From NCBI RefSeq assembly GCF_026626585.1, contig NZ_JAPNKD010000018.1, positions 267,718 to 318,520 on the forward strand: a stretch of 50,803 nucleotides of DNA. Reading direction: 5' to 3'. The first letter of the stretch is position 1. Each line of letters begins with the position of its first letter. The stretch is from Nannocystis sp. ILAH1. Its GTDB lineage: Bacteria; Myxococcota_A; Polyangia; Nannocystales; Nannocystaceae. The notes under the pieces are model-generated. The model did not search any database and had not been told where the DNA came from. It saw only the letters and a program-made list of their open reading frames with translations. The position numbers were made by a program, and so were the translations under genes. Positions 33,289 through 48,194 of this stretch are shown in pieces.

Positions 33289-33858
33289 GGGGCGATGAAC
33301 GCACGATCACCCTCATGAGGGCAAGTACCCGACCGAAGCGATCGGGACGGGGATGTTCGGATCCATCGTCGGGGGAGCGCCGAGGGGCTTCGCATGCGGG
33401 GGTCCGATGTCGCGTCGACGACGCGCTCGCTACGAGCATGTGTCCGGCACGAGGAACGAGACGAGAGGCGGGGTCGCGAGGCGACGGGCGCCATGCGAAT
33501 GCGCGGAGGCCGGGGGGGCGGGCGAATGCGAGGAGAGGCCGCGAGAGAGCGACAGGAGGACTTGTGGCGAGGTTCGCGGAGAGTCCGGGCGGCAGTGGTG
33601 ATTGCAGGGAGGGCGGAGGGTCGATGCATTGCGAACCGGCGCGGGGGACCGGCGTCGGGGGCGCGGCCGGACGCGGGGATCTCCGCAGGGGCTGCCCGCC
33701 GGCGTGGGTCGCGCGCAGGGCGAGGACCCAGGCGTCGCACGGGGGCATGGCGGAGCCGGACGACCCGGGAGCCGCCGCCGGGCAGGGGATCCTCCGCGCG
33801 GCTCAGGTCCGCGGGCGGCTGCAGGGGCGTGCATTTCGGGCGCGGCGCCGCGGGCGGG

Positions 33859-35508
33859 ATGGGTATCATCGCGCCGATGTCGAGCTCTCGCCGCTCCTTC
33901 CTCGCGCTCACGGGGCTCTGTGGGGCCGAGGCGCTGCTCCACGGCTCGCGCGCGGCGTGGGCCGGTCCGGCGCCGAGCCGGATCCCGGCGCCGAAGTCGG
34001 CGCCCGCGAGCGCAGACGCGGGCATGGCCCTGCTGGCCGCGAGCCGCTTGCTGGCCGACGAGTCGCTGCTGCGCACCGCGCTCGCGGCGGCGACGAAGGC
34101 CGGGGCGAGCTACGCCGACGCGCGCCTGGTGCTGATGCGTCGCGAGCGGGTCGGGGTGCGCGACGACCACGTGAGCGGGATCGGTCGCAGCGAGGACTAC
34201 GGGGTCGGTCTGCGGGTGATCGCGGACGGCGGCTGGGGCTTCGCGGCGACGGCGGAGCGCAGCGCGAAGGCGGTCGAGGGGATCGCCAAGGCGGCGGTGG
34301 CGATGGCTCGCCAGAGCGCGCTGCTGATGCCGCAGCCGGTGACTCTGGCGCCGGCGCCGGTGCTGCAGGGCGGCTGGGTGTCGCCGTTCCAGGTCGACCC
34401 GTTCTCGATCGCGCCGGCCGAGAAGGCGGAGCTGCTGCTGGCGGCGGCCCGCGCGGCGCTGGCGGTGCCCGGGGTGGCCCACGTGGACGCGAACGTGGCG
34501 TGCGTGCGCGAGGAGAAGCTGGTGATGACGAGCGAGGGCTCGCGGGTCCACCAGATCTTCTTCCGCGTGATTCCCGGGCTGACCGCGACGGCGATCGATC
34601 GCCGGCGCGGTCGCTTCGCGGGGCGTGATCACGAGGTGGCGCCGATGCTGGCCGGCTGGGAGCACGTGACCGCGGCGGACCTGGTCGGCAGCGCGCCGAA
34701 GATCGCCGAGGAGGCGCTGCAGAAGCTGCACGCGGCGCCGGCGGTGCCGGGCAAAAAGCACGCGATCCTGGCGCCGTCGAACCTGTGGCTGACGATCCAC
34801 GAGAGCATCGGCCACTCGACGGAGCTCGACCGGGCGCTCGGCTACGAGGCGAACTACGCCGGCACGAGCTTCCTCGGGCCCGACAGGGCGGGCAAGGTCA
34901 AGATCGGCAGCGAGATCGTGAACCTCGCGGCCGATCGCACGCAGCCGGGCGGTCTGGCGACGACCGCGTGGGACGACGAGGCGGTGGCGTCGCAGCGCTG
35001 GGACCTGGTGAAGAAGGGGACGTTCGTCGGCTGGCAGACGACGCGCGACCTGGCGGCGGCGGCCGGCGAGCAGGCGAGCCGCGGCTGCAGCTACGCCGAC
35101 AGCTACGCGAGCGTGCCGTTCCAGCGCATGCCGAACGTGAGCCTGCAGCCGGGTACCGAGGGCTACACGACGGAGGACCTGATCTCGGCGACCGACGACG
35201 GGGTGCTGATCACGGGCCGCGGCAGCTGGTCGATCGATCAGCAGCGCTACAACTTCCAGTTCTCGGGCCAGTTCTTCTGGGAGATCAAGAACGGGCGGTT
35301 GACGCGGCCGCTGCGAGACGTGGCCTATCAGGCCAACACGGTCGAATTCTGGAGCTCGTGTGACATGCTCGGAGGGACAGACACGTACCGCCTCGGCGGC
35401 AGCATGAGCGACGGCAAGGGCGAGCCGTCGCAGAGCAACGCGGTCAGCCACGGGTGCCCGCCGGCGCGCTTCGTCGTCAACATCCTCAACACCGGGGGGG
35501 ACAAGTGA
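33859..35508 (+). CDS. tldD: TldD-family metallopeptidase with twin-arginine (Tat) signal peptide
   Basis: Frame of ORF 33394..35508. ATG 33859 (MGIIAPMSSSRRSFLALTGLCGAEALLHGSRAAWA). An HESIGH zinc motif is present. The C-terminal motifs CDMLGG and GGSMSDGKGE resemble TldD-family proteins as I recall them. Confidence 0.85.
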   Translation: MGIIAPMSSSRRSFLALTGLCGAEALLHGSRAAWAGPAPSRIPAPKSAPASADAGMALLAASRLLADESLLRTALAAATKAGASYADARLVLMRRERVGVRDDHVSGIGRSEDYGVGLRVIADGGWGFAATAERSAKAVEGIAKAAVAMARQSALLMPQPVTLAPAPVLQGGWVSPFQVDPFSIAPAEKAELLLAAARAALAVPGVAHVDANVACVREEKLVMTSEGSRVHQIFFRVIPGLTATAIDRRRGRFAGRDHEVAPMLAGWEHVTAADLVGSAPKIAEEALQKLHAAPAVPGKKHAILAPSNLWLTIHESIGHSTELDRALGYEANYAGTSFLGPDRAGKVKIGSEIVNLAADRTQPGGLATTAWDDEAVASQRWDLVKKGTFVGWQTTRDLAAAAGEQASRGCSYADSYASVPFQRMPNVSLQPGTEGYTTEDLISATDDGVLITGRGSWSIDQQRYNFQFSGQFFWEIKNGRLTRPLRDVAYQANTVEFWSSCDMLGGTDTYRLGGSMSDGKGEPSQSNAVSHGCPPARFVVNILNTGGDK

Positions 35509-36854
35509 GCGCGCAGTCTCCTTTGAGCCCGGCCGAGGCGCGGGCGCTGGTCAAGTCGGCGCTGGCCGCCGCGAGCTTCGAAGACGTGAGCCTGCGAGTG
35601 ACCGCGCGGCGCACTGCGTACCTGCGGTTCGCCGCGGGCGCGCCGACGACGTCCGGCGAGGCGGCGCGCTTCGAGGTGTCGGTGACTGCGGCGAAGGACG
35701 GGCGGGTGGCGACGGTGTCAGGCACCGGGCGCGACGCGGCGTCGCTGCAGGCGCTGGTGCGCGAGGCGGAGGCGCTGGCCAAGCTGGCGCCGAAGGACCC
35801 GGAGCACGAGCCGCCGCTGGGGCCGCAGCAGTACGCGAAGGTGGCGGCCCGCGACGCGAAGACGGCGGAGGTCGGGCCCGAGGGGCGCACCGAGGTGGTG
35901 GCGCGGGTGCTGAAGGTGGCGCGCGAGGCCAAGCTGGTGGCTTCGGGGATCGTCGAGCACGAGGACGGGGTGACTGTCCTGGCCAATCGGACAGGTCTGT
36001 TCGCGCTCCACGCGGCGACCGAGGCGTCGCTGACGACGACGATGCGCACGCCCGACGGCAAGGGCAGCGGCTGGGCCGGCGGCGCGTCACACCGCCTGGC
36101 CGAGCTCGACGCGCCGGCGCTGGCGCGGCGAGCGGCCGACAAGGCGACGATGTCGAGCCAGGGCGCGGACGCGCTGGCGCCGGGGGCGTACACCGTGGTG
36201 CTCGAGGCGCAGGCGGTGGCCGACCTGCTCGGCTTCCTGGTGTCGGCGCTGCAGGCCCGCGCGGCCGACGAGGGCCGCAGCTTCTTCAGCCGCCCCGGCG
36301 GCAACGCGATCGGCGAGGCGCTGTTCGACCCGCGGGTGACGCTGCGCTCCGACCCGACCGACCCGCGCTGGCCGTCGATCCCGTTCGCGGGCGACGGGCT
36401 GCCGCTGCCGGCGACGACGTGGATCGACCGCGGGACGCTGAAGGCGCTGGCCTACAGCCGGTTCTGGGCCCACAAGCAGAGCAAGCCGCCGCTGCCGGGG
36501 CCGCGCTCGATCTTCCTCGCGCCCGCCGACCCGGCCGAGGGCAAGGACCTGCTCGAGCTGGTCCGCGGGGTCGAGCGCGGGGTGCTGGTGACGCGCTTCT
36601 TCTACAACCGCATGCTCGACCCGCGGCAGATCCTGGCGACCGGGCTGACGCGCGACGGCACGTTCCTCATCGAGCAGGGGAAGATCGCGCGGCCGGTCAA
36701 GAACATGCGCTACAACGAGAGCCCGGCGGCGCTGCTGAAGAACCTGGTGGCGATCGGCAAGCCCGAGCGCACGGCCGACGACGGGATGGTCGCGGTGGTG
36801 CCGCCGCTGGTGGCGAAGGACTTCCACTTCGCCAGCGTCAGCGACGCGGTGTGA
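35505..36854 (+). CDS. PmbA/TldE-family peptidase partner
   Basis: Frame of ORF 35454..36854. GTG 35505 overlaps the tldD stop (GTGA). It has the TldD/PmbA fold without the HExxxH motif. Confidence 0.8.
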   Translation: MSAQSPLSPAEARALVKSALAAASFEDVSLRVTARRTAYLRFAAGAPTTSGEAARFEVSVTAAKDGRVATVSGTGRDAASLQALVREAEALAKLAPKDPEHEPPLGPQQYAKVAARDAKTAEVGPEGRTEVVARVLKVAREAKLVASGIVEHEDGVTVLANRTGLFALHAATEASLTTTMRTPDGKGSGWAGGASHRLAELDAPALARRAADKATMSSQGADALAPGAYTVVLEAQAVADLLGFLVSALQARAADEGRSFFSRPGGNAIGEALFDPRVTLRSDPTDPRWPSIPFAGDGLPLPATTWIDRGTLKALAYSRFWAHKQSKPPLPGPRSIFLAPADPAEGKDLLELVRGVERGVLVTRFFYNRMLDPRQILATGLTRDGTFLIEQGKIARPVKNMRYNESPAALLKNLVAIGKPERTADDGMVAVVPPLVAKDFHFASVSDAV

Positions 36855-36972: not shown

Positions 36973-38193
36973 ATGGTCGTCGCCGCGCTGGTCTCGGTCG
37001 CCCTGCTGCTGCAGCCGCCGGTGGGTCTCGAGGCGCCGGAGTCCTGTCCGGAGGGGGCGACGATGTGCGCGGGCGGCTGCATGCCGGCGGGGGAGCCGTG
37101 CCCGCCGCCCAGGGTGCCGCGGCCCGATGTCACCGTGTCGCCGCCGACGCCCACCGACGAGGAGATGGCGGCGAAGATCCAGGCGGCGTGGGGCTGCGAC
37201 GAGAGCGACGCGCAGCTGGCCCGGCGCAAGCTGAAGTGGCTCGCGGCGTTCGGGCTGCCGGGGCTCGCGCTCGCGGCCGGAGGGGTGGCCGCGGCGGTGA
37301 CGATGCGCGAGCCGGTGAGCCCGCGCGAGGACGCCGAGCTGCGCCTGACCCGTCAGGGCCTAGGGGGGAGCGTGTCGCTGCTCCGTCAGTCCGGGGCGCA
37401 GGCGCGGGCCCGGCAGCACGAGCGGCGCCGCGGGCGGCGCGATGCGGACCACCTGCAGCGTGGCGTACGCTCCTTCACCGTCTTGCAGCCGCGTCCCGGT
37501 CCGGAGCGCGCCGAGGACCTGCTCCGGCGAGGCGTCCGGGCCGACGTCGATCTGCACCCAGCGCGTGCCGTCGGCCTGGACGTCGCCGCAGGCGATCCGC
37601 AGGCCCGGCTCCGCCAGGAAGGGGGCGAGCGCCCGTTCGAGCAGCGCCGGCGTCGCAGTCAGGGCGCGCAGGGAGGCGACGCACAGCAGCGCCATCTCGG
37701 CCGTCGACACCTCCGCGCGATCCTCGGCGAGGGCGCGGGCGCGGGCGAGCAGGTGCTCCACGTCGCAGGGCTGCTGCACCCCCGAGAAGGCGGGAAAGGG
37801 GATATCGGGCGCAGGCACGGGCGGCGGAAGCGGCCACAGCTCGTACAGCGGCGCGCCCGGCTGCAGCTCGTCGTCGTCCGTCGCGAACAGTCGCCCGATC
37901 ACGCCTGCGCGCGGGGCGGTCAGCTCGGCGACGATCTTGGACAGCTCGACCTCGAGGATCGGGTCCTCGGCCGCGACGACGTCGCCGGTGCGCCGGACAA
38001 ACCGGACCCGGCCCGAAGAGTCGTCCTCGAGCGCCGGCAGGCGCACGAGCAGCGGGGGGTCCTCAGGGTCTTGCGTCACGTCCTGGCTCCGAGGTTGCGA
38101 GCGCCATCGTCACCGCTGGCAGGATGTCCTCCGCCGCGCCGGGGACGTGATGCACGAGCACCGCCGCGGCCAGGCGCGACGGCCGGCGCTTGA
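36973..38193 (+). CDS. putative small secreted Cys-rich protein; only the first ~140 codons look coding, true 3' end unknown
   Basis: ORF 36973..38193. It has a signal-like N-terminus (MVVAALVSVALLLQPPVGLEA) and one transmembrane-like segment. Beyond about 37400 it reads Arg-rich noise and is fully overlapped by the well-supported minus-strand gene 37360..38079. Confidence 0.3.
   Translation: MVVAALVSVALLLQPPVGLEAPESCPEGATMCAGGCMPAGEPCPPPRVPRPDVTVSPPTPTDEEMAAKIQAAWGCDESDAQLARRKLKWLAAFGLPGLALAAGGVAAAVTMREPVSPREDAELRLTRQGLGGSVSLLRQSGAQARARQHERRRGRRDADHLQRGVRSFTVLQPRPGPERAEDLLRRGVRADVDLHPARAVGLDVAAGDPQARLRQEGGERPFEQRRRRSQGAQGGDAQQRHLGRRHLRAILGEGAGAGEQVLHVAGLLHPREGGKGDIGRRHGRRKRPQLVQRRARLQLVVVRREQSPDHACARGGQLGDDLGQLDLEDRVLGRDDVAGAPDKPDPARRVVLERRQAHEQRGVLRVLRHVLAPRLRAPSSPLAGCPPPRRGRDARAPPRPGATAGA
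37360..38079 (-). CDS. biotin/lipoyl-attachment-domain protein with a C-terminal extension
   Basis: ORF 37360..38079. The N-terminal ~80 aa has the lipoyl/biotinyl-domain signature ...PILEVELSKIVAELTAPRAGVIGRLF...GAPLYEL, with a candidate modified Lys in ELSKIV. Confidence 0.7.
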   Translation of the reverse strand: MTQDPEDPPLLVRLPALEDDSSGRVRFVRRTGDVVAAEDPILEVELSKIVAELTAPRAGVIGRLFATDDDELQPGAPLYELWPLPPPVPAPDIPFPAFSGVQQPCDVEHLLARARALAEDRAEVSTAEMALLCVASLRALTATPALLERALAPFLAEPGLRIACGDVQADGTRWVQIDVGPDASPEQVLGALRTGTRLQDGEGAYATLQVVRIAPPAAPLVLPGPRLRPGLTEQRHAPP

Positions 38194-39361
38194 GCTCGAC
38201 GATCCGCGCCCCGGCTCGCGCGGCCACCAGCGGCAGCTCGCGCGCCGGCGAGACATCCATGGCGCAGCCGATCACGAGCAGGAGATCGGCTGCGGCTGCG
38301 TGGGCTCGCGCGGACGCCATCGCCGCGGCCGGGACCTGCTCCCCGAACAGCACCACCTCGGGGCGGAGCACGCCGCCGCAGGTGCAGCGCGGGGGCAGCG
38401 GTCGGCCGGAGGCCGCGAGCGCCTGCGCTGACGCCTCGCCGGAGCGCCCGCAGTCGAGGCAGCGTGTCCGCGACAGACTGCCGTGCAGCTCGATCACCGG
38501 CGTCGATCGCCCGGCGGCGGCGGCGGCGGCCTGGTGCAGCTCGTCGACGTTCTGCGTGACGATCGCAGCGAGGTTGGGCAGGCGCGCGAGCGCCTGATGG
38601 CCAGCGTTTGCGGGGTGCGGCCGATCGCCCCAGAACGCGCGGATCACCGACCACAGCGTCGCAGGATCGTCGCGGAAGCGGGCCATGCTGACGGCGTCGT
38701 CGCGTGTGAAGCGCTGCCACAATTGCTTGCGGGTCTCCAGCCCGCTCGCCGCCGACATGCCAGCGCCGGTCAGCGCGACGATCCGCGACGACGTGCGGAG
38801 CGCCGCGACGAGGTCCGCGAGCGACCAGGTCACGCGCCCACGCTCCCGCGGAGGGCCCGCCGGCAGCTCCGCCGGAGCTCGCGGACAAGGCAGGGGCGTC
38901 GCGCAGCGCGACCACGCGAGCGCAGGGCCGGCCTCGTCGAGCTCCCGCGCCTGCTGGAACGCCTGCAGCCATTGCAGGTCGGCGAGCGGCGGCGAGGCGT
39001 CGGGGGACGTCGCCGCCGCGAAGTGGGCGCGCGCAGTCGCGGGCTGCCCTCGTTGTACGAGGTTGACGGCCAGGGCCGCGTGCGCCGCGGCGTCGCGTGG
39101 AGCGAGCGCCAGAGCCCGACGATAGCGCGACGCGGCTCGCTCGAGATCTCCACGCAGGTGGTCGATCGATCCGAGCAGCACCCATCCGCGCGGATCGGCG
39201 GGAGCCGCGGCGACTGCGGCCTCTGCAATTTCCGTGGCCGCCGCGAGCTCGCCGCGCGCGCGCGCGGCCGCGGCTCGTTCGCCGGATGACGCCTCCACGC
39301 CCGCGATTATCGCTGCGTGGCAGTGGGCGTACAAGTTGCTCGGCATCGGGCTCGCTCGCAC
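38063..39361 (-). CDS. SIR2-family NAD-dependent protein deacylase/ADP-ribosyltransferase (sirtuin) with N-terminal TPR-like region
   Basis: ORF 38063..39361. Sirtuin motifs are present: LTGAGMSAASGL, TQNVDELH, LHGSL, the Zn ribbon CLDCG...CTCGGVLRPEVVLFGE, and LLVIGCAMDVSPA. The N-terminal ~150 aa is TPR-like. Confidence 0.85.
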   Translation of the reverse strand: MRASPMPSNLYAHCHAAIIAGVEASSGERAAAARARGELAAATEIAEAAVAAAPADPRGWVLLGSIDHLRGDLERAASRYRRALALAPRDAAAHAALAVNLVQRGQPATARAHFAAATSPDASPPLADLQWLQAFQQARELDEAGPALAWSRCATPLPCPRAPAELPAGPPRERGRVTWSLADLVAALRTSSRIVALTGAGMSAASGLETRKQLWQRFTRDDAVSMARFRDDPATLWSVIRAFWGDRPHPANAGHQALARLPNLAAIVTQNVDELHQAAAAAAGRSTPVIELHGSLSRTRCLDCGRSGEASAQALAASGRPLPPRCTCGGVLRPEVVLFGEQVPAAAMASARAHAAAADLLLVIGCAMDVSPARELPLVAARAGARIVELKRRPSRLAAAVLVHHVPGAAEDILPAVTMALATSEPGRDARP

Positions 39362-39365
39362 CTGG

Positions 39366-40028
39366 TCAGGGCGGCGGCGGCAGGTCGTCTGCGGCCTCCT
39401 GGCGCAGCTTGGACCATATGCGCAGGAGCTCCGCGCTGCGCGGGTCGAGGCTGCCGCGGGCGCGTACCGCCGCCTCGACCACGACGATCCGCGCCACCAG
39501 GGCCGGCTGCACGTCGGCGGTCGGGAGGTCGCGCAGCGTGTTGGTCGCCGCCTCGATGAAGTCGATCGGCGCGACCTCCTGCATGAATGTGAGCACCGGC
39601 TCGACCGACTCCGCCTTCGGCACCGCGCTGATCATCTCGAGGAACGTGATCACCTTCCATTGCGGCCACAGGTCGCCGAACTTGAGGATCACCTCCCAGC
39701 ACAGCGGCAAGATCGCCGGCCCGTAGTCGTTGCGGGCCTTCATCCCGTACCGGGTCCAGATCCGCGAGATGCCGGTGACCTTCCTGCCCTCGGCGGCGAC
39801 GTTGACCTGATCGAGCTCCGCGAGCACCTGACGATACAGCGCCGCGTGCTCGCTCCAGCCGCGGACGATCGCCGCCAGCGTCCGCCACAGCCAGTCGGGG
39901 TCGCCGGCGTACGCCGGCAGGTAGGTCATCACCGCCGTCGGGTCGGCGAGCACCCGGTCACGCTGGTGCGTGTAGTCCTCGCCGTGAAGCCTCCGCAGCG
40001 CCGCGAACTCTGGCCATTTCTGCGTCAT
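39366..40028 (-). CDS. hypothetical protein (220 aa), between the deiminase and the sirtuin
   Basis: Lower part of ORF 39366..40202. ATG 40028 (MTQKWPEFAALRRLHGEDYTHQ...) overlaps the upstream gene's stop by 4 nt. Confidence 0.65.
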   Translation of the reverse strand: MTQKWPEFAALRRLHGEDYTHQRDRVLADPTAVMTYLPAYAGDPDWLWRTLAAIVRGWSEHAALYRQVLAELDQVNVAAEGRKVTGISRIWTRYGMKARNDYGPAILPLCWEVILKFGDLWPQWKVITFLEMISAVPKAESVEPVLTFMQEVAPIDFIEAATNTLRDLPTADVQPALVARIVVVEAAVRARGSLDPRSAELLRIWSKLRQEAADDLPPPP

Positions 40029-41269
40029 ACCTGCTGCTCCCACCACCAGCGATCGACCGGCGGCTCCCGCTTGCTGTTCGTCCCGCAGTGGATCTCGCCG
40101 TAATTGACGTGATACGTGAAGAAATCGTCGACGAACTCGAGGTCGACGCCGGTGTCGGCCGGCGGCCCGAGCGCGGTGCGGATGTTGCTCTCGAACTGGC
40201 ACACCCCGCCGACCTCCGGCCCGAACGGCTTGGGGATCACCAGCCGCACCGTCTTGTCGGGTTTCGTCAATACCAGCATGTTGACCACCCCTGGCGTGTA
40301 CGCGACGTGAAGATTATTTTCGGTCGTCATGAACAGCACCGGCAACGGGATGAAGTCGGTCTCCGCGAGGTCGAGCTCGTCCATGAGCTTGGCCTTGATG
40401 CCATCGATGGAGCCCTGCACCGTCGTCTGCACGTTCATGAAAGACGAGTCGTCGAGCACCTCGTCGACCGTGCGCAGGTGGTAGCTGTCGTATTGGTCCT
40501 GCGGCGTCATGACATCCGGCGGATGATCGGGCAGCGGCGGCGGCGGCGTGAGCCGCAGCAGCGGCGCGGTGCCCTGCCGCGCCGCTTTGAGTCGGCGCAG
40601 GATCGACACCGCTTCCGTCGGGCTGGCGAGCGCGACCTTGAACTTCTTGGGCGCGTTCTTCACCGGCACGAACGACATCACCTCGTCGACGTGACCGACC
40701 TCCAGCCACCCGGTGTTGAGCGCGAACGGCTCCTGGACCCGCTGCGCGCGCAGGAAATCGACGACATCGCGCTGCATGTTGCGCCGGGCGGTGCCGCCGG
40801 GGTGCTCGCCGTAGATCAGGCGGCCGAACTTGTACTCCTTGCCGCGACCGCTGTGGGTGAACGGCGGCGAGCACTCGAGGTTGCCGAACGAGTCGAGGGT
40901 GCCGCCGCTCTTGCTCGGCGGCATCGCCTGGACCCACCCGAAGCCGGGCTCGAGCATCCGTTCGCGCGGGTAGCGGTCGATGGGCCCCCAGCCCAGGATT
41001 GGACGCGAGTCGTTGGCCGTCGCTTGCGCGCCAAACGCTCCAGCGGCCCCGACGCGCAGCGCCGGTGGTGCCGGCGAGGGCGAGGACGCAGTCGTGGGCA
41101 AGCGGGGCCCGCTGGCCTCCTCGAGTGCGGCAAAGTAGGCGCCGGTGCCCCAGCGTGGGAACGTCGGGGCCCGACGCTCGACCGAGCCAAACGCCCCTTG
41201 CCTGCCGGGCTTCTTGAGACGGCCGTGTTTGACGGGATGGCCGATGTAAAGCGCAGCTTGCGCGTTCAT
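40025..41269 (-). CDS. eukaryote-type protein-arginine deiminase (PAD/PADI catalytic domain) homologue
   Basis: Lower part of ORF 40025..41494. ATG 41269 ([18 protein letters not shown]...). The C-terminus [34 protein letters not shown] closely matches the PADI catalytic-Cys region (FFTYH...GEVHCGTN...WW). Also [15 protein letters not shown]. About 414 aa, with no N-terminal Ig-like domains. Confidence 0.75.
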   Translation of the reverse strand: [414 protein letters not shown]

Positions 41270-41604
41270 GCTGATTTCCGTCTGGAGATCCCGGCCGTCC
41301 GCCACCTCTGAGATGGCGACAAGGGCCTTCTTGGCAGCGGCGGTGCCTGAGAGGACAGTCTGCGTGGTGGTGGTGCGGCCACCGCCCTGGCGGCGGGCGG
41401 ACCAGGCGGTGACGCCAAGTGATCTCGCCGGCTCTCTCAAAGCGGCGCTGAGGGACGGCGCCAGAGTAACGGCGGCAGGCCGATGGATATGCAACTACCA
41501 CCACAGAACGACGGTCCGTCTGCTCGCCGCGGAAGGTCCTTTTCTGCCTCGACAAAATCCCGTCTTCGACCGAGAATATCCGTGGCACGACCGACTCTTG
41601 CGTT

Positions 41605-41633: not shown

Positions 41634-42416
41634 ATGAAGAGGATGAGCATCCTGAGAAGATTGGGGATCTGCCTACTTTGTGCGGCGGCATGTGGTAAGG
41701 TCGACGAAACCGGCGACGCAACTGATGGAGGAGCAACGACCACGACCGCGGCCGCGGCCGCAGACACCGGCGAGGCATGCACACCGGGGTATGAAAGCTG
41801 TGAGTGCGTCGGTGGCGAGGTATGTCTCGCGGGCTTGTCGTGTGTCTCGAAGGTATGCGTCGACCTAGGCGAGTTGACGACCTCGGGGGGCGGCAGCGCC
41901 GGCGAGACGACCGGTAAGGATACCAGCGAGGAGCCACCGCCGACAGGCACCTGCTCTGTCACGGCCGAGTGCGCCGACACGGAGATCTGCGTCGACGGTT
42001 TCTGCGGCGACACTGACCTGTATTACTTCGACGTCCGCGTGACGAGGTTCGCGCCGGACGACTGTAGCGACGGATGGGGCGCCGGCGAGGTCTACTTCGC
42101 GTTCTACTCGGGGACGGAGAGCCAGCTACAGGGAGTGTCGACCTGGTCCTACTGTCCTGCGGACTGGAGTGATTTCGAGATGCCATTATACGACTCACTG
42201 ACGCCGTTCCAGCTTGACTTCTGGGAGGATGACGAGTTTGAGGACGACTATATGGCGACGCTCTGCTGGGACGCCGACGGCAACGCCAACTCGACCGACC
42301 CGTGTAGCGTCGTACCCAAGCACTGGTTGCGCGAAGGCACAGTGACTGGCTACATCGGCTCGTCCAACCAGTACGGTATCACGGTGACGTTCACGCAGCG
42401 TCCGTGGGAAGGTTGA
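41634..42416 (+). CDS. Cys-rich lipoprotein, function unknown
   Basis: ORF 41634..42416. Signal MKRMSILRRLGICLLCAAAC. Cys-rich modules (CTPGYESCECVGGEVCLAGLSCVSKVC, CSVTAECADTEICVDGFC). The C-terminal domain is acidic. Confidence 0.8.
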   Translation: MKRMSILRRLGICLLCAAACGKVDETGDATDGGATTTTAAAAADTGEACTPGYESCECVGGEVCLAGLSCVSKVCVDLGELTTSGGGSAGETTGKDTSEEPPPTGTCSVTAECADTEICVDGFCGDTDLYYFDVRVTRFAPDDCSDGWGAGEVYFAFYSGTESQLQGVSTWSYCPADWSDFEMPLYDSLTPFQLDFWEDDEFEDDYMATLCWDADGNANSTDPCSVVPKHWLREGTVTGYIGSSNQYGITVTFTQRPWEG

Positions 42417-42425
42417 GCACCCGAC

Positions 42426-43148
42426 ATGCGTCCGGCCGTCCTCGTCCTGCTCAGTATCTCGCTTGTCGCAGCTCCCTCCGCCGCGAAGCGCCCGCCCAAG
42501 GCCAAGCCGGTCGTGTCGCGCAAAGAAGCGGCCCCGCCAGCGCCGGCAATTCCGGCGAGCTCGTGGCGCGCGTTGAAGGATGCATGGATTGAAGTGTCGC
42601 TGCGTGATGGGGGAGTGGTACAGGGGCGACTTGCTGGTTCCGACGACAGGACGGCGACGATCGTCGAGAAGTCCGGCCATGTGCGTGCGCTCGCTATCGC
42701 CGACGCTCTCGAGCTCCGACAAGTTGCTGCTCCACCGGCACCACCCCCACCAGCACCTCTGACACTTGAGGCCAAGGACGCCGCGCGTGTGGCGGCGCTC
42801 GAGAAGCAGTACGGCGCCGGCTACACCAAGCCCAAGGGCAAGAAGATGCACACCGCTGGGTCCGTCATCCTCTCGCTCGGGCTCACACAGGCGGTGCTCG
42901 GCGTGGGCTTCGGGATCGTAACCGCCCTTTCCCAAGATGACGTATTCCGCGCGACCAGCATCGGCCTCTTGATTAGCGGCGGCATCACGATCGCGGTGGG
43001 CATACCCCTTATGGTCAAAGGCAGGGAGCGGCGCCTCGATTATCACGAATGGCTTCAGCAGCAGTCCTTAGGGGGGCAAGCCCGCGTAGTTCCCGGCATC
43101 ACCCCCCTACGTGGCGGTGGCGGTGTAAATCTGCGCATTTCCTTCTAA
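42426..43148 (+). CDS. secreted protein, function unknown (C-terminal 2-TM region)
   Basis: ORF 42426..43148. Signal MRPAVLVLLSISLVAAPSAA. Confidence 0.65.
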   Translation: MRPAVLVLLSISLVAAPSAAKRPPKAKPVVSRKEAAPPAPAIPASSWRALKDAWIEVSLRDGGVVQGRLAGSDDRTATIVEKSGHVRALAIADALELRQVAAPPAPPPPAPLTLEAKDAARVAALEKQYGAGYTKPKGKKMHTAGSVILSLGLTQAVLGVGFGIVTALSQDDVFRATSIGLLISGGITIAVGIPLMVKGRERRLDYHEWLQQQSLGGQARVVPGITPLRGGGGVNLRISF

Positions 43149-43199: not shown

Positions 43200-43994
43200 C
43201 TACCTTAAGGCATGCATGTCGAGTTGATCGACGAGAATCTCCCGCAGGCGCCTGAGTTCCCGCTCGGAGTCGGCGTCGATACTGACTGAATCGTAGGAAA
43301 CGTCGCTCGGATAGAGCATGAGCGAGGCGTCACTGCGGTTGTAGTATGCGAGCTCTCCCGTCATGTAGGGCACTGGGGCGAACCCGAGTCTTTCCGCGAG
43401 CTCCCGGAACCGGGCCATGCGCGCTGCCATGGGCGGCACGCCGGCTTTACGAGCTGTCGACCGGCGCAGCTCAGCCCGGTGCGGCAGGACTTCGGTGCGG
43501 AGGAAGCGGAACGCCTCGCAGTAGAGGAACTGCATCAGGCTGTGGCAGTGGTGGTAGATGTACACATGATGCGATCCTGGGATAGGCTGGCCTTCATCGT
43601 CAAAGCCCCACTCATAACCGACCACCGGGAACGGGGGGCTCTGAGTGGTGTCGAGGAACATCTCGGACTGTCGGTCGAGCGTCCACAGGTATACAGCTCC
43701 TGGTGGGGCAGGGACCGTGGGGGCCCCGTAGAACGTGGCGATCACGTCGATGCCGAAATCATAGTCCTCCATGAATGGAGCGGCGGCTCCGTGCGGGGTG
43801 CGACCCAGGCGTCGAAGGAAGGCCCGAAGTTCGGGCGGAAACGCGAAGCCCGCGCGCATCTCTAGGCGGCGGATATCGTCCTCGGACGCGGGTGCGAAGC
43901 GAGCGCCAAACCCTTCGACATAAACAGCGAAGTACCGGACCCACGCGTCGAGCTCGGTAGCCCAGAAGTGTTCGTCGTCCCTATTTGGCGTCAT
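43200..43994 (-). CDS. hypothetical protein, in a lower-GC island
   Basis: ORF 43200..43994. The local GC is clearly lower than the flanks. There is no recognisable motif. Confidence 0.55.
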   Translation of the reverse strand: MTPNRDDEHFWATELDAWVRYFAVYVEGFGARFAPASEDDIRRLEMRAGFAFPPELRAFLRRLGRTPHGAAAPFMEDYDFGIDVIATFYGAPTVPAPPGAVYLWTLDRQSEMFLDTTQSPPFPVVGYEWGFDDEGQPIPGSHHVYIYHHCHSLMQFLYCEAFRFLRTEVLPHRAELRRSTARKAGVPPMAARMARFRELAERLGFAPVPYMTGELAYYNRSDASLMLYPSDVSYDSVSIDADSERELRRLREILVDQLDMHALR

Positions 43995-44617: not shown

Positions 44618-44736
44618 TGCGTATTCCGGCCATCGTGATCGCGTGGATCGGTCATCGTGATCACTCCGGAGGTCGGAGCGGAGCGACGCGGTTGCGGGCT
44701 CGGCGCGGACGGAGCGAAGCGACGCTGATGGGGTGT

Positions 44737-45441
44737 TCAGGTCTGGGAGGCGACCTCCTTGCGGCGTGATGGGCCTTTTAGCATGAGGCGGTGGCACTGG
44801 GAGAGCATGCGATCGCAAATCGCATCAGCGGTTGTGGGGTCGCCGATCTGGTCGTGCCAGAGCTCGGGCGAGCGCTGGCTGGTCAGGATGGTGGAGCGTT
44901 CACCGAATCGATCCTCCATCAGTTCGGACATGTCTCTTCGCTCGGCCGGTCCGAGCGGGGTCATGGCCCAGTCGTCGAGGATCAGGACGTCGACGCGGGC
45001 GAGCTTGGCGAGCAATCTTGCATAGGTCCCGTCGGCGCGGGCGAGCGCGAGCTCGTCGAAGAGCCGCGAGGTGCGGCGGTACATGGCGCGGTAGCGGCGG
45101 CGGAGGGCGTGCTGGGCGAGGGCGCAGGCGAGGAAGGACTTCCCGGTGCCCGTCGGGCCGGTGATGGCGATGTTCTGGTGCTAGGCGACCCAGTTGCAGG
45201 TCGCGAGCTGGCGGATCAGCGGCTTGTCGAGCTCGCGGCGGTCGTCGTAGTCGAGGTCCTCGAGGCAGGCGCTGCCGAGCTTGAGGCGCGCCTCCTTGAG
45301 GTTGCGCTTGAGGCGGGCGTTCTGCCGGCTCATCCACTCGGAGTCGACGAGGAGGCCGAGGCGCTCGTCGAAGCCGAGGCCACCGTAGTCGGGCCGCGAC
45401 TGCTGCTCGAGCCAGGCTGCGGCGAGACCGTTCAGCCGCAT
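44737..45441 (-). pseudogene. istB: IS21 helper ATPase IstB with an in-frame amber stop (TAG at 45181-45183) just before the Walker A motif
   Basis: Track ORFs 45181..45441 and 44737..45084 are in the same frame. The sequence between them reads HQNIAITGPTGTGKSFLACA (Walker A) straight after the TAG. The C-terminus is VDVLILDDWAMTPL...ERSTILTSQRSPELW. Confidence 0.8.
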
Positions 45442-45492
45442 TCTTTGAGCTTGTCCATGGTCTGCTGATTCATCATCGATGTGTCTTTTCGG

Positions 45493-47040
45493 TCAGTTGT
45501 AGTAGCGAGGGCCGCGGATGTTCTCGTGGGCCTCGGGCTTGTCGGCCGGTATGTCGGCGGGGATATCGGGCAGCGGGGCGCGGTCGAGGCCGTTCTTGAG
45601 GATCGATTCGACGTGGCGGTACGAGCGAGCGCGCACGGCCACGGCACGGGCGCAGGCGGCCTCGAGGCGCGCGTCGCCGTAGGTCTTGCCCAGGCGCAGG
45701 ATGCCGAGGCAGGCGCGGTAGCCGTGCTCGGGGTGCTTGCGGTCCTTCATGATGGCCTGGGCGAGCTCGGCGGTCTTCGGGCCGACCTGCTTCGCCTGGG
45801 CGAGGATCCGGCTCGGCGAGCGATCGGCGTGCCGCTGGTGGGCCTTCGGCATGTGCTCGGGCTTGGTGGTATGGCGACCCGCGGCGAAGCTGCGCGCGTG
45901 CGAGGTGATGCGCTTGCCGCCGTGCAGGAGCCCGACGGTCGTCGCGGTGAAGCGCGCCTCGACGGCCTCGCCGACGAGGGTGTACGGCACCGAGTAGTAG
46001 TGGCGATCGATCTCGACGTGGTAGTCGATGTTGACGCGGCACGTCTTCCACTCGCAGTACTCAAATCGCTCGACGGGGAGCGGTCGCAGTTCCGATCGCT
46101 CGATGCGCTCGAAGAGGGCGCGACGGCTGATGTTGCCGTACTTCTTCATCGGCCGGGTGTTGAGGTCCTCGAGCAGCTCGGCGACCCGCGCATTGAGCTC
46201 CGCGAGCGAGTGGAAGACCTCGTCGCGCAGGCGCGCGACGATCCACCGCTGGGCGATCAGCATGGCGTTCTCGACCTTGGCCTTGTCGCGCGGCTTGCCG
46301 GGCCTGGCCGGCATGACGGTGGTGCCGTAGTGCTCCGCGAGCGCGGCGTAGGTTCGCTGGATCTTCGGGTCGTACCAGCACGACTTCGTCACCGCGGCCT
46401 TGAGCTGGTCGGGCACCAGCGCCGCCGGCACGCCGCCGAAGTACTCGAGCATGCGCGCGTTGCTGGCGATGAAGTCGTGGCCCCGCTGCGTCAGGCTCGC
46501 CTCGGCGTAGGTGAGGTTCGAGGCCCCGAGCACGCCGACGAAGAGCTCGACCGCGATGCACTCGCCGGTCTTCGGATCGACGATGTGCAGCCTGTTACCC
46601 GAGTAGTCGACGAAGGCCTTGTCACCGGCCACGTGGTCGATCCGCATCGTCCAGCCGCGCTGCTTCAGCCAGGTTCGGTACAGCTCGCAGAATTGCGTGT
46701 AGCGATACCCGTCCCGGTTCTTCTCGAGGTACTCGACGTGCAGCAGCGCGAGCGTGACGCCCTTCCGCCGCCGCTGCGCGTGGATATGCGTGAAATCAGG
46801 CAGCGGCCTCGCCCGCGACGCCGGCTCGCCGTCGTAGACGACCCGCTCCAGTGCCTCGTCGCTGAGGGCCTGCACGGCCTCCCAGGTGAGGCCGGCCTCA
46901 CTCGCCTTGCCCACGACCTTGCCGACGACGCCGGCGCTGACGTCGAGGCTCGCAGCCACGTCCCGGTGGCTTCGCTGCAGCGCCCACTTCTGGCGCAGGA
47001 TCTCGCGGATGTTCTTCATGGTCAGTCGCTGCGTCGCCAT
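45493..47040 (-). CDS. istA: IS21-family transposase IstA
   Basis: Frame of ORF 45493..47178. ATG 47040 (MATQRLTMKNIREILRQKWALQRSHRDVAASLDVSAGVVGK), with a GGGAGG RBS 5 nt upstream. It has an HTH domain plus an integrase core (DYSGNRLHIVD...). Confidence 0.9.
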   Translation of the reverse strand: MATQRLTMKNIREILRQKWALQRSHRDVAASLDVSAGVVGKVVGKASEAGLTWEAVQALSDEALERVVYDGEPASRARPLPDFTHIHAQRRRKGVTLALLHVEYLEKNRDGYRYTQFCELYRTWLKQRGWTMRIDHVAGDKAFVDYSGNRLHIVDPKTGECIAVELFVGVLGASNLTYAEASLTQRGHDFIASNARMLEYFGGVPAALVPDQLKAAVTKSCWYDPKIQRTYAALAEHYGTTVMPARPGKPRDKAKVENAMLIAQRWIVARLRDEVFHSLAELNARVAELLEDLNTRPMKKYGNISRRALFERIERSELRPLPVERFEYCEWKTCRVNIDYHVEIDRHYYSVPYTLVGEAVEARFTATTVGLLHGGKRITSHARSFAAGRHTTKPEHMPKAHQRHADRSPSRILAQAKQVGPKTAELAQAIMKDRKHPEHGYRACLGILRLGKTYGDARLEAACARAVAVRARSYRHVESILKNGLDRAPLPDIPADIPADKPEAHENIRGPRYYN

Positions 47041-47172
47041 TTCGCCTCCCACGCGAAATGGCCGGTGATTCAGCGTCGACCTCGCCCCCTCGCGCATTCG
47101 GCTGCGCGTAACACGCGGAGGCGGCTCCGTTCCTTGGAGTCTCGGCCGCCGGCCGGCGCACTCGCCGCCGGT

Positions 47173-47315
47173 GATCACGAGGACCGATCTGGGCGATCAC
47201 GATGCCGATCGGCGCGATCACGATGCCGATCGGCGCGATCACGACGCCGACCGGCGTGATCACGATGCCGATCTACGCGATCACGAGGGACCGATCTGGG
47301 CGATCACGATGGGCC
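47173..47315. repeat. array of about 6 x 21-bp GATC-rich repeats (GATCACGATGCCGATCGGCGC) in the IS21 left terminal region
   Basis: Copies at roughly 47173, 47195, 47216, 47237, 47258, 47279 and 47304. The first and last copies are the variant GATCACGAGGRACCGATCTGGGC. Each unit carries two GATC sites. Inverted copies of the unit lie at 44632-44665 at the other end. Confidence 0.8.
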
Positions 47316-48194
47316 GTTTTCCGCAGGCTGGTTGTAGAAGAGGCGCAGAACGGCCTGGCCTTCGCGCCAGGTGGCGATGGCCCGACGGTTGGCAGCGATC
47401 AGGGTGTTCTTGCGGGTGGCCGCGGGCCAGGCGCGGTCGATGGATTCAATCAGGGTGAGCAGGATGTAGAGCTCGAAGCGCGTCTCGGGCTGATACGGGA
47501 CGAGGGAGTAGCGGGCGAGGGCGTCGCGCAGGTGCTCGAGTTTGGGGCGAGGGAGGAGGTTGGCGTGGTCGTGGGCGATGATGGCGGCGTGGCGGATCGC
47601 GGCATCGCGGCTCTGCTGGCACGCGCGGTAGGTGTCGGCAGTCGGGCGTGACTCGGGGAGGTCGCGCAGCGCGGCGTGTCGGAGGCAGGTCTCGGCGGCG
47701 TTGTGGATCCGCGAGAGGCGTCCGATCCAGAGATCGTCGCGTGCATATTCGCTCGGGCCGAGCGTCGCGGCGGCGAGGCGGATCCGCTCGACGAGCCAGC
47801 GAACGAGCAGGAGCTCCTGCGTACTGAAGGACCGGCGGAGGCTGGTGGTGATGGCACGAGCGGGATCGCGGGTCTGTTGCCGGAGGACCAGGGTACGGCC
47901 CCAGTCGATCCGGCCGCGGACATGGCCGCGGAGCTCCTCGCGGACGCGTTCACTGCGCGGGTGGATCCGGCGCAGGTAGGCCGGGAGGTCGTCGCAGACG
48001 AGGCGCTCGACGCCGCTGCCGGGGTCGAGCAGGAAGGCGAGCGCGGCGAGCTGGTGCAGGCTGTCGGCGTCGCCGGCGAGGCGGGCGAGCGCGCGGGCGA
48101 CGGCGGTAGCCGGGCGCGGGTGGCCCTCGGCGCAGCGCAGGAGGTACGCCGGGAACTGTCCTTCGAGCCAGGTCTCCCAGGAGCGCTCGGTCAT
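47304..48194 (-). pseudogene. N-terminal fragment of the McrC-like gene, partner of the McrB-like GTPase; truncated by the IS21 insertion
   Basis: ORF 47304..48194. Its last three codons plus the stop (GPS*) come from the IS tip. Its ATG overlaps the McrB-like stop (ATGA). Confidence 0.6.

What the first reader, a model, noticed from the sequence alone, without database searches (positions are those of the whole stretch)
40025..41269. Eukaryote-type PADI catalytic domain in a bacterium
The C-terminus [34 protein letters not shown] closely matches the catalytic-cysteine segment I recall from vertebrate PADI enzymes (FFTYH..HGEVHCGTN...KWWNM). It does not match the bacterial agmatine-deiminase or Porphyromonas-type enzymes. 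Bacterial members of the animal PADI family are rare and are discussed in the context of horizontal transfer. This protein is about 414 aa, so it has only the catalytic domain.
Basis: partly seen in the sequence, partly recalled or inferred. Interest (0 to 1): 0.7.

Follow-up and report, generated by a model that had tools for sequence, protein, structure and literature searches.

The report
Truncated PADI gene copy with partner
The window holds a real relative of the animal citrullinating enzymes (PADI), but only a beheaded, almost certainly inactive duplicate of a full-length gene found elsewhere in the same Nannocystis genome, kept next to an intact copy of its small partner gene; related loci suggest the intact enzyme is a toxin delivered by a type VI secretion system.

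Summary
The observed motif is real, and the homology goes well beyond it. Window 41011-40028 (-) matches Pfam PAD (PF03068, E 7.7e-79) and human PADI1-4 (E ~1e-50 to 1e-56), with His, Asp and Cys of the active site conserved.

The gene is not a "catalytic-domain-only" enzyme. Only profile positions 98-394 of 395 are present. The first catalytic Asp (PADI4 D350), most Ca sites and the PAD_M domain are missing. The first ~90 residues of the 414-aa ORF are non-homologous read-through with no codon periodicity.

The ORF is identical to Nannocystis sp. ILAH1 WP_267745890.1. The same genome carries a 643-aa full-length PADI that is identical over residues 322-643, and each copy is followed by an identical 220-aa HEAT-like partner. 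The window therefore holds a ~1.65-kb partial duplicate: 3' PADI fragment plus whole partner.

Intact orthologues sit in cassettes of (PAAR/VgrG)-DUF4123-accessory-PADI-partner in several lineages that share only 40-55% PADI identity, and one PAAR-PADI fusion exists. This points to a T6SS effector-immunity pair, with the window copy as an orphan-type remnant.

Bacterial PADIs are already documented, and this one is the two-domain bacterial/fungal type.

The parts
40025..41035 (-). 3' fragment of a PADI gene. It encodes the equivalent of residues ~313/322-643 of the full-length paralogue, and the stop codon is at 40025-40027. It contains GHVDE (His codon 40693-40691, Asp codon 40687-40685) and HCGTN (Cys codon 40087-40085).
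   Evidence: tblastn of Nannocystis PADIs maps residues 316-643 to 41011-40028 at 98% identity. It is identical to P0138 from GWGPIDRYP to the end. Pfam PAD covers profile 98-394/395. PADI3 H470/D472/C646 align to it. GC3 is 0.91.
41011..41035 (-). Junction zone. Homology to intact PADI genes ends here in patchy fashion (TAND..GWG with small indels).
   Evidence: DNA alignment with L001/L002, the protein comparison with P0001, and blastn homology from 40995.
41036..41494 (-). Non-homologous 5' extension of the ORF (annotated ATG at 41269, maximal TTG at 41494). Most likely non-coding DNA that stays open by chance in high-G+C sequence.
   Evidence: No codon periodicity in any frame. No similarity to PADI profiles or to residues 1-312 of the orthologue beyond shuffled controls. 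The only sigma70-like site (41549-41577) faces the + strand ORF at 41634.
39366..40028 (-). Intact 220-aa partner gene. Its ATG overlaps the PADI stop (ATGA). The product is an all-alpha HEAT-like protein and a candidate cognate immunity or inhibitor protein.
39360..39365 (.). Downstream end of the duplicated segment, a few bases after the partner's stop codon and directly before the TPR-SIR2 gene.
   Evidence: blastn: L001 10809-12441 matches window 40995-39360, and L002 10826-12441 matches 40990-39366. Nothing else in the flanks is shared.

Best explanation
Window ~41035-39360 (-) is a ~1.65-kb partial duplicate of a PADI operon of Nannocystis sp. ILAH1. It comprises the last ~322-330 codons of a two-domain (PAD_M+PAD_C) protein-arginine deiminase gene, plus the complete translationally coupled downstream partner gene.

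SHOWN. The fragment lacks PAD_M, the first quarter of the catalytic domain and the first catalytic Asp. The annotated 414-aa ORF owes its first ~90 codons to unrelated DNA with no coding signal. A full-length 643-aa paralogue that is identical over the shared part exists in the same genome.

INFERRED (strong). The fragment cannot deiminate arginine and probably cannot fold as a five-bladed pentein propeller, so as an enzyme gene it is a young pseudogene.

INFERRED (moderate). The parent gene belongs to a PADI subclade that acts as a type VI secretion cargo effector. It would be loaded through a DUF4123 chaperone onto VgrG/PAAR and would citrullinate arginines in recipient-cell proteins. The HEAT-like partner would be its cognate immunity or inhibitor protein. 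On that reading the window copy is an orphan-type 'effector 3' remnant + immunity gene' module, in which only the partner gene can still have a function (an extra or back-up immunity copy).
For: Truncation:
- Pfam covers 98-394/395.
- tblastn and HMM scans find only residues 316-643 / HMM positions 278-598 in the whole window.
- D288 of P0138 aligns to PADI3 D350 and lies upstream of the break.
- D288, H422, D424 and C624 are invariant in 34 bacterial PADIs.

Duplicate status:
- P0137 (414 aa, ILAH1) equals the window ORF, and P0138 (643 aa, ILAH1, on another contig) is identical over residues 322-643.
- The partner P0121 has consecutive accessions next to both copies.
- Only 1.64 kb is shared with N. 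pusilla and N. bainbridge loci.

Non-coding 5' part.

T6SS link:
- PAAR-Ntox46, Tsi6+DUF4123, accessory, PADI, partner in L001-L004.
- VgrG-DUF4123-accessory-PADI-partner in L005 and L011, and DUF4123 or VgrG adjacent in L017, L020, L022 and L092.
- PAAR-PAD_M-PAD fusion P0066.
- These PADIs share only 40-55% identity.
- T6SS markers are found in 4/14 partner/accessory-positive metagenomic loci against 0/66 others.

Partner as a binding or immunity protein:
- It lies immediately downstream, often with an ATGA overlap.
- It stays intact beside a truncated PADI (window) and beside a frameshifted PADI (L004).
- It has a HEAT-like fold, and HEAT-repeat proteins are a recognised immunity class (PMC3482391).

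Orphaned 3' effector regions with immunity genes are known for T6SS/Rhs loci (PMC5361080).
Against: - No T6SS gene lies in the window, and the module is not in an array downstream of an effector locus.
- The fragment is identical to the resident full-length allele and is not a displaced older allele, so a plain recent segmental duplication explains the structure equally well.
- Several accessory-PADI-partner loci have no T6SS gene within the available flank (L006-L010, L013-15).
- Three distant partner homologues carry signal-peptide or lipobox-like N-extensions, while the Nannocystis partner does not. That is awkward for a single immunity mechanism.
- dN/dS (0.5-0.75) does not separate the fragment from intact genes or from the partner.
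- My T6SS marker HMMs were built from partner-positive loci, which is a source of bias.
- No activity, secretion or toxicity has been measured for any member.
- I could not obtain the DNA of the full-length ILAH1 locus.
Confidence: 0.65

Rival explanations
1. Neutral, recent segmental duplication with no function for either gene. A 1.65-kb piece of the PADI operon was copied by illegitimate recombination into a mobile-DNA-rich, lower-G+C region. The partner is not an immunity protein but, for example, a regulator or chaperone of an endogenous PADI.
For: The copy is identical at protein level to the resident full-length gene and partner. It lies ~3.6 kb from an IS21-like element and in a G+C trough. 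No minus-strand promoter was detected. The trio occurs without T6SS genes in L006-L010 and L013-15. RBIL2 appears to have only one partner copy.
Against: The duplicated segment ends within a few bases of the partner's stop codon and keeps that gene whole. The partner also stays intact beside a frameshifted PADI in N. pusilla Na p29. T6SS markers recur beside this PADI subclade in several divergent lineages, and there is a PAAR fusion.
Confidence: 0.25
2. One reading: a functional stand-alone catalytic-domain PADI of 414 aa that citrullinates proteins.
For: The ORF is open and is annotated by NCBI as 'protein-arginine deiminase family protein'. Cys, His and one Asp of the active site are present.
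Against: It lacks profile positions 1-97 of the catalytic domain, including the invariant Asp (PADI4 D350) and the WxQD.ME.G Ca-site segment. The N-terminal ~90 aa are unrelated, show no codon periodicity, and match no protein other than the identical ILAH1 entry P0137. All 34 aligned full-length bacterial PADIs have PAD_M plus a complete PAD_C.
Confidence: 0.04
3. The parent PADI is a tailoring enzyme for a distally encoded peptide natural product, as shown for actinobacterial PF03068 PADs that deiminate the lasso peptide citrulassin. The window holds a dead copy of such a gene.
For: This is the only experimentally supported role for a bacterial PF03068 PAD that I found (bioRxiv 10.1101/2020.07.16.207027). 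Nannocystis are prolific secondary-metabolite producers (own knowledge). The Ca-switch Gly puts this PADI with the actinobacterial/fungal type (PMC8826395).
Against: That study found no conserved gene neighbourhood for its PADs, whereas this subclade has a conserved accessory-PADI-partner trio and repeated VgrG/DUF4123/PAAR linkage. No RiPP genes were seen in the flanks of L001-L011.
Confidence: 0.05
4. Assembly artefact: a chimeric join placed part of the single real PADI operon into this contig.
For: The two copies are identical at protein level within one draft assembly.
Against: Both copies sit inside long contigs (318 kb and 1.02 Mb), each with unique flanks on both sides. The junction shows patchy sequence rather than a clean repeat boundary. 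Collapsed repeats normally break contigs and do not create extra copies.
Confidence: 0.03

Closest known systems
Two-domain bacterial/fungal PADI homologues (PAD_M PF08527 + PAD_C PF03068), as surveyed in Cummings et al. 2022 (PMC8826395)
   Same: The full-length paralogue P0138 has PAD_M+PAD_C and no PAD_N. All four catalytic residues are present, and Gly sits at the PADI2 D389 Ca-switch position. The window fragment is identical to its C-terminal half.
   Different: The window copy is 5'-truncated (no PAD_M, no D350 equivalent). The survey did not report a conserved partner gene or any T6SS linkage.
Vertebrate PADI1-4 and PADI6 (solved structures, e.g. 7d4y PADI3, 1wd8 PADI4, 4n20 PADI2)
   Same: About 40% identity over the C-terminal ~315 residues, with the GHVDE and HCGTN motifs and the C-terminal WW shared.
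   Different: No PAD_N cupredoxin domain. The Ca-switch Asp is replaced. The window copy additionally lacks PADI residues ~1-373.
Actinobacterial PF03068 PADs that deiminate the lasso peptide citrulassin (bioRxiv 10.1101/2020.07.16.207027)
   Same: Same Pfam family and the same conserved Asp350-His471-Asp473/Cys645 set in the full-length enzymes.
   Different: Those PADs show no conserved neighbourhood. This subclade has an accessory-PADI-partner trio and T6SS genes nearby.
Orphan effector-3'-fragment + immunity modules of T6SS/Rhs/CDI loci (e.g. Vibrio cholerae immunity arrays, PMC5361080)
   Same: A 3' piece of the effector gene without its 5' part, followed by an intact cognate downstream gene.
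   Different: It is not located downstream of the main effector locus, and it is identical to the resident allele rather than a displaced foreign or older allele. No array is present, apart from a weak SUKH-1 gene 3 kb away.
DUF4123 (Tap/TEC)-chaperoned T6SS cargo effectors encoded after vgrG (own knowledge of the V. cholerae Tap-1/TseL type)
   Same: The gene order VgrG-DUF4123-(accessory)-effector-immunity is seen in L005 and L011, and PAAR plus DUF4123 in Nannocystis.
   Different: The effector domain is a PADI, for which I found no described T6SS example. An extra accessory protein lies between the chaperone and the effector.
Porphyromonas PPAD / agmatine deiminase family (PF04371)
   Same: Same pentein superfamily and Cys-based guanidino chemistry (PMC8826395).
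   Different: No detectable sequence match, so it is not a member.

Membership tests
PADI (PF03068 PAD_C) | Significant match to the PAD_C profile | tested here: met
   E 7.7e-79, 265.9 bits against a cut-off of 25. PDB PADI1-4 score E 1e-49 to 1e-56.
PADI (PF03068 PAD_C) | Complete catalytic domain (whole profile / five-module pentein propeller) | tested here: not met
   Only profile positions 98-394 of 395 are matched, and only positions 278-598 of my 598-position full-length HMM. The missing part is absent from all six frames of the window.
PADI (PF03068 PAD_C) | Catalytic Cys (PADI4 C645 / PADI3 C646) | tested here: met
   C395 of the 414-aa ORF, in EIHCGTN, aligns to PADI3 C646.
PADI (PF03068 PAD_C) | Catalytic His and second Asp (PADI4 H471, D473) | tested here: met
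   H193 and D195, in GHVDE, align to PADI3 H470 and D472.
PADI (PF03068 PAD_C) | First catalytic Asp (PADI4 D350) with the adjacent Ca1/Ca2 ligand segment (Q349, E351, E353) | tested here: not met
   The equivalent is D288, in WLQDAMEIGF, of the full-length paralogue. It is invariant in 34 bacterial PADIs. It lies upstream of the breakpoint and is absent from the window.
PADI, multi-domain architecture | PAD_M domain (PF08527) N-terminal to PAD_C | tested here: not met
   There is no PAD_M hit in the window ORF. PAD_M is present in P0001/P0138 and in nearly all full-length homologues.
Animal/late-cyanobacterial three-domain PADI clade | PAD_N domain (PF08526) and the Ca-switch Asp (PADI2 D389) | tested here: not met
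   No bacterial homologue carries PF08526. P0138 starts directly at the PAD_M-equivalent region. PADI2 D389 aligns to Gly (G338 of P0138, G109 of the 414-aa ORF), which is the actinobacterial/fungal state per PMC8826395.
PADI | Ca-dependent peptidyl-arginine to citrulline activity | not testable with these tools
   This needs recombinant protein and a citrullination assay.
Porphyromonas-type PAD / agmatine deiminase (PF04371) | Match to the PAD_porph profile | tested here: not met
   PF03068 is the only Pfam family hit at E<=1.
T6SS cargo effector-immunity module | Effector gene adjacent to vgrG / PAAR / DUF4123 chaperone genes | tested here: inconclusive
   Not met in the window: no such gene was found by HMM or Pfam. 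Met for orthologues and relatives in L001-L005, L011, L017, L020, L022 and L092, and by the PAAR-PADI fusion P0066.
T6SS cargo effector-immunity module | Small cognate gene immediately downstream of the effector | tested here: met
   The partner at 39366-40028 overlaps the PADI stop (ATGA). It is conserved downstream of PADI in >=12 non-redundant metagenomic loci and in all the Nannocystis loci. Its protective function is untested.
T6SS cargo effector-immunity module | T6SS-dependent secretion, toxicity to recipient cells, and neutralisation by the immunity protein | not testable with these tools
   This needs competition, toxicity-rescue and secretion assays.
Orphan effector-fragment/immunity module | 3' effector fragment lacking its 5' delivery part, next to an intact immunity gene | tested here: met
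Orphan effector-fragment/immunity module | Position in an array downstream of the active effector locus, and/or an allele different from the resident effector | tested here: not met
   The fragment is on a different contig from the full-length gene and is identical to it. The flanks are unrelated to the cassette.

The most novel reading that the evidence does not exclude
A subclade of bacterial two-domain PADIs, including the full-length Nannocystis paralogue of this fragment, is a previously undescribed class of type VI secretion effector. It would be a protein-arginine-citrullinating toxin loaded via DUF4123/VgrG/PAAR (sometimes fused to PAAR), helped by a conserved accessory protein, and neutralised by a dedicated HEAT-like immunity protein. 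The window copy would then be an orphan immunity module that still carries the dead 3' end of the toxin gene. This would give bacterial PADIs an ecological function and supply a natural protein inhibitor of a PADI.
Probability: 0.45. Interest if true: 0.7.

Novelty: new member of a known kind. Interest (0 to 1): 0.4.

Why it matters
As an enzyme gene the window feature is ordinary: a truncated copy that automatic annotation still labels as a PAD-family protein. It should not be counted as a 'catalytic-domain-only' bacterial PADI in evolutionary surveys or HGT arguments.

The context uncovered while checking it has more value. What bacterial PADI homologues do is largely unknown, apart from citrulassin tailoring. 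A conserved accessory-PADI-partner operon that repeatedly sits beside VgrG/DUF4123/PAAR genes gives a directly testable hypothesis: a citrullinating interbacterial toxin with a cognate HEAT-like inhibitor. If true, it adds a new chemistry to T6SS effectors and offers a natural proteinaceous PADI inhibitor.

Tried and rejected
- I searched for the missing 5' half anywhere in the 50.8-kb window with tblastn of four full-length orthologues and with a PADI HMM on six-frame ORFs. Nothing was found.
- I tested whether the 5' extension keeps faint PADI homology, prompted by BLASTP's 92% coverage with P0022. The aligned stretch has almost no identities. Profile and shuffle tests are negative.
- I tried to fetch the DNA of the ILAH1/RBIL2 loci. 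It is not on record, so the two ILAH1 copies could not be compared at nucleotide level.
- The GTDB scan found only N. bainbridge and N. pusilla.
- dN/dS is 0.47-0.75 for the fragment, the intact PADIs and the partner alike, so it is not discriminating.
- The repeat search found no direct or inverted repeats flanking the duplicated segment. It only delimited the IS21-like element.
- The promoter/terminator scan found no minus-strand promoter.
- No tRNA and no Rfam family are present.
- NCBIfam and PADLOC gave no hits for the fragment or the partner. Pfam gave none for the partner or the accessory protein.
- The partner fold search returned only generic HEAT/alphaRep/ARM matches.
- The short PADI ORFs on long contigs (P0063, P0064) turned out to be frameshift-split full-length genes, not further orphan fragments.
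- Literature searches for PADI or deiminase together with T6SS, DUF4123 or polymorphic toxins returned nothing relevant. This covers only the held library.
Full report
OBSERVATION. The ATG at 41269 gives 414 aa, and the longest version, from the TTG at 41494, gives 489 aa. Against Pfam the ORF matches one family only, PF03068 PAD (E 7.7e-79). There is no hit to the Porphyromonas/agmatine-deiminase family and none in NCBIfam. Against solved structures it matches PADI3, PADI4, PADI2 and PADI1 at E 7.5e-56 to 2.6e-49 over ~315 residues. GHVDE aligns to PADI3 H470/D472 and HCGTN to C646. The similarity is therefore real and extends far beyond the C-terminal motif.

THE GENE IS BEHEADED. The Pfam alignment covers profile positions 98-394 of 395, and the PDB alignments begin at PADI residue 374-384. 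The nearest relatives are 590-643-aa PAD_M+PAD proteins of Nannocystis, and they match only 68% of the ORF. tblastn of four of them places residues 316-643 at window 41011-40028 (98% identity to Nannocystis sp. RBIL2). It finds nothing for residues 1-315 anywhere in the window, and an HMM scan of all six-frame ORFs agrees (HMM positions 278-598 only).

In the full-length protein, WLQDAMEIGF aligns to PADI3 WIQDEMELGY, so its D288 is the equivalent of catalytic D350. This Asp, with H422, D424 and C624, is invariant in 34 bacterial PADIs. It lies upstream of the breakpoint and is missing here. The Asp350-His471-Asp473/Cys645 set is the accepted catalytic apparatus of PADs (bioRxiv 10.1101/2020.07.16.207027; PMC8826395).

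The ORF upstream of ~41035 is not PADI. The profile E-value is above 1, and the local alignment score is 35 against 37.5+/-5.4 for shuffles. BLASTP's apparent extension with P0022 has almost no identities. This stretch has flat positional G+C (0.68/0.65/0.77) compared with 0.65/0.43/0.91 in the homologous part, and no other frame looks coding. The only sigma70-like site there faces the divergent + strand ORF at 41634. The '414-aa protein' is thus ~322-330 PADI codons fused to an accidental open frame in high-G+C DNA.

PROVENANCE. The 414-aa ORF is identical to WP_267745890.1/MCY0993629.1 of Nannocystis sp. ILAH1 (318-kb contig). The same genome encodes a 643-aa PADI (MCY0986641.1, 1.02-Mb contig) that is identical to the window fragment from GWGPIDRYP to the stop.

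The gene immediately downstream in the window (39366-40028) starts with an ATGA overlap on the PADI stop and encodes 220 aa. Its product is 100% identical to a protein with three accessions: two from ILAH1, numbered consecutively with the two PADIs, and one from RBIL2.

At DNA level only window 40995-39360 is shared with the N. pusilla and N. bainbridge loci (94% and 89% identity). Both flanks are unrelated. The junction at 41035-41011 is patchy, and no flanking repeats were found. So the window holds a ~1.65-kb partial duplicate: 3' PADI fragment plus the entire partner gene.

It sits in a G+C trough, directly upstream of a TPR-SIR2 gene. About 3.6 kb away lies an IS21-like element whose istB carries a nonsense codon. 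I could not retrieve the DNA of the full-length ILAH1 locus.

WHAT KIND OF PADI. Bacterial PF03068 homologues are well documented. PMC8826395 (Table 1) lists 295 bacterial species, 69 of them Proteobacteria, and bioRxiv 10.1101/2020.07.16.207027 lists 837 proteins. The Nannocystis enzyme has PAD_M and PAD_C but no PAD_N. PADI2's Ca-switch D389 aligns to Gly, the state that PMC8826395 describes for actinobacterial and fungal two-domain PADIs, not for the cyanobacterial/animal clade. 'Eukaryote-type' is therefore true only at the level of the Pfam family.

CONTEXT OF THE INTACT GENE. In N. pusilla and N. bainbridge the gene order is PAAR-Ntox46 toxin, Tsi6+DUF4123, a 259-aa accessory protein, PADI, partner. 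A metagenomic contig with a PADI only 53% identical has VgrG, DUF4123, a 255-aa accessory protein, PADI, partner. All five components are homologous across these loci. The accessory-PADI-partner trio also occurs without nearby T6SS genes (L006-L010, L013-15).

I scanned 80 metagenomic PADI loci with my own HMMs:
- 13 have the partner directly downstream (12 of the 70 with enough flank), all among the loci most similar to the Nannocystis PADI.
- VgrG or DUF4123 markers occur in 4 of 14 partner/accessory-positive loci and in 0 of 66 others.
- One caveat applies: the marker HMMs were derived from positive loci.

One homologue is a PAAR-PAD_M-PAD fusion that passes Pfam cut-offs and keeps the catalytic motifs. 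The T6SS-linked PADIs are only 40-55% identical to one another.

MECHANISM. Shown: the window copy is a truncated duplicate that lacks essential catalytic and structural parts. Inferred with high confidence: it is enzymatically dead.

Inferred with moderate confidence from conserved gene order: the parent PADI is a T6SS cargo effector that citrullinates recipient proteins, and the partner is its cognate immunity or inhibitor protein. The window then resembles the orphaned effector-3'-end plus immunity modules known from T6SS and Rhs loci (PMC5361080), and only the partner gene could still be useful. In support, the partner also stays intact next to a doubly frameshifted PADI in N. pusilla Na p29. 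Those frameshifts could, however, be long-read indels.

Points against the orphan reading:
- The copy is identical to the resident allele, lies on another contig and has no T6SS neighbours, so a neutral recent duplication explains the structure equally well.
- dN/dS (0.47-0.75 throughout) does not discriminate.
- Some distant partners have signal-peptide-like extensions and pair with LysM-PADIs, so cellular compartments may differ between lineages.

VERDICT. This is not a minimal bacterial PADI enzyme. It is a young, inactive partial paralogue of a two-domain bacterial-type PADI, annotated as if intact. Its own novelty is low. The worthwhile lead is the T6SS-associated accessory-PADI-partner cassette from which it derives.

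Noticed in passing
window 44625-47312 (-): IS21-family element. It has istA (45493-47178; rve + Mu-transposase C), 34-nt inverted repeats at 44631-44664 and 47171-47204, and iterated 21-nt terminal repeats at 47184-47311. Its istB (44737-45492) is interrupted by one in-frame stop just before the Walker A motif (..NWVA*HQNIAITGPTGTGKS), so the element is probably defective.
   Followed up: partly
window 38063-39361 (-): A TPR + SIR2-domain protein gene starts fewer than 20 nt after the partner gene's stop, so the two may be co-transcribed. It has no PADLOC defence-system match.
   Followed up: partly
window 43200-43994 (-): A 264-aa protein with a weak SUKH-1/SMI1_KNR4 match (24.1 bits, just under the 25.4 cut-off). 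This family is often used as polymorphic-toxin immunity proteins, so its presence 3 kb from the orphan-type partner gene may not be coincidental.
   Followed up: no
window 41634-43148 (+): Two co-oriented ORFs with no family match: a Cys-rich putative lipoprotein (260 aa, lipobox-like N-terminus) and a 240-aa signal-peptide/TM protein. They are preceded by the only sigma70-like promoter in the region (41549-41577). G+C is lower here (0.62-0.66) than in the rest of the window (~0.72).
   Followed up: no
window 47304-49876 (-): A 561-aa AAA_5 (dynein-related/McrB-like) ATPase and a 296-aa ORF with no family match, overlapping by 4 nt. This may be a McrBC-like restriction pair. PADLOC gives only a weak mad8 hit.
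   Followed up: partly
L004 10013-11833 (Nannocystis pusilla Na p29): The PADI gene is split by two frameshifts, and the upstream accessory gene by one, while the partner gene is intact. This is either a second independent decay of the PADI or indel errors in a long-read assembly.
   Followed up: partly
P0066; L006-L008; P0035; P0131/P0133/P0136: Architectural variants of the module: a PAAR-PAD_M-PAD fusion, and LysM-bearing PADIs (N-terminal LysM-like segment in L006-L008 by eye; Pfam LysM hit in P0035) whose partner proteins carry signal-peptide or lipobox-like N-terminal extensions. These suggest different delivery routes or compartments in different lineages.
   Followed up: partly
L001 9135-9914; L005 5867-6634 and 9784-10137; L006 2370-2825; L009 9247-10011: The conserved accessory protein upstream of PADI is a tandem duplication of a ~100-aa domain with no family match. 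Single-domain versions (117-151 aa) exist. Its role (adaptor, co-effector or second immunity) is unknown.
   Followed up: partly
window 33319-36854 (+): Two adjacent TldD/PmbA-family metallopeptidase genes (729 and 496 aa), the usual heterodimer pair.
   Followed up: no
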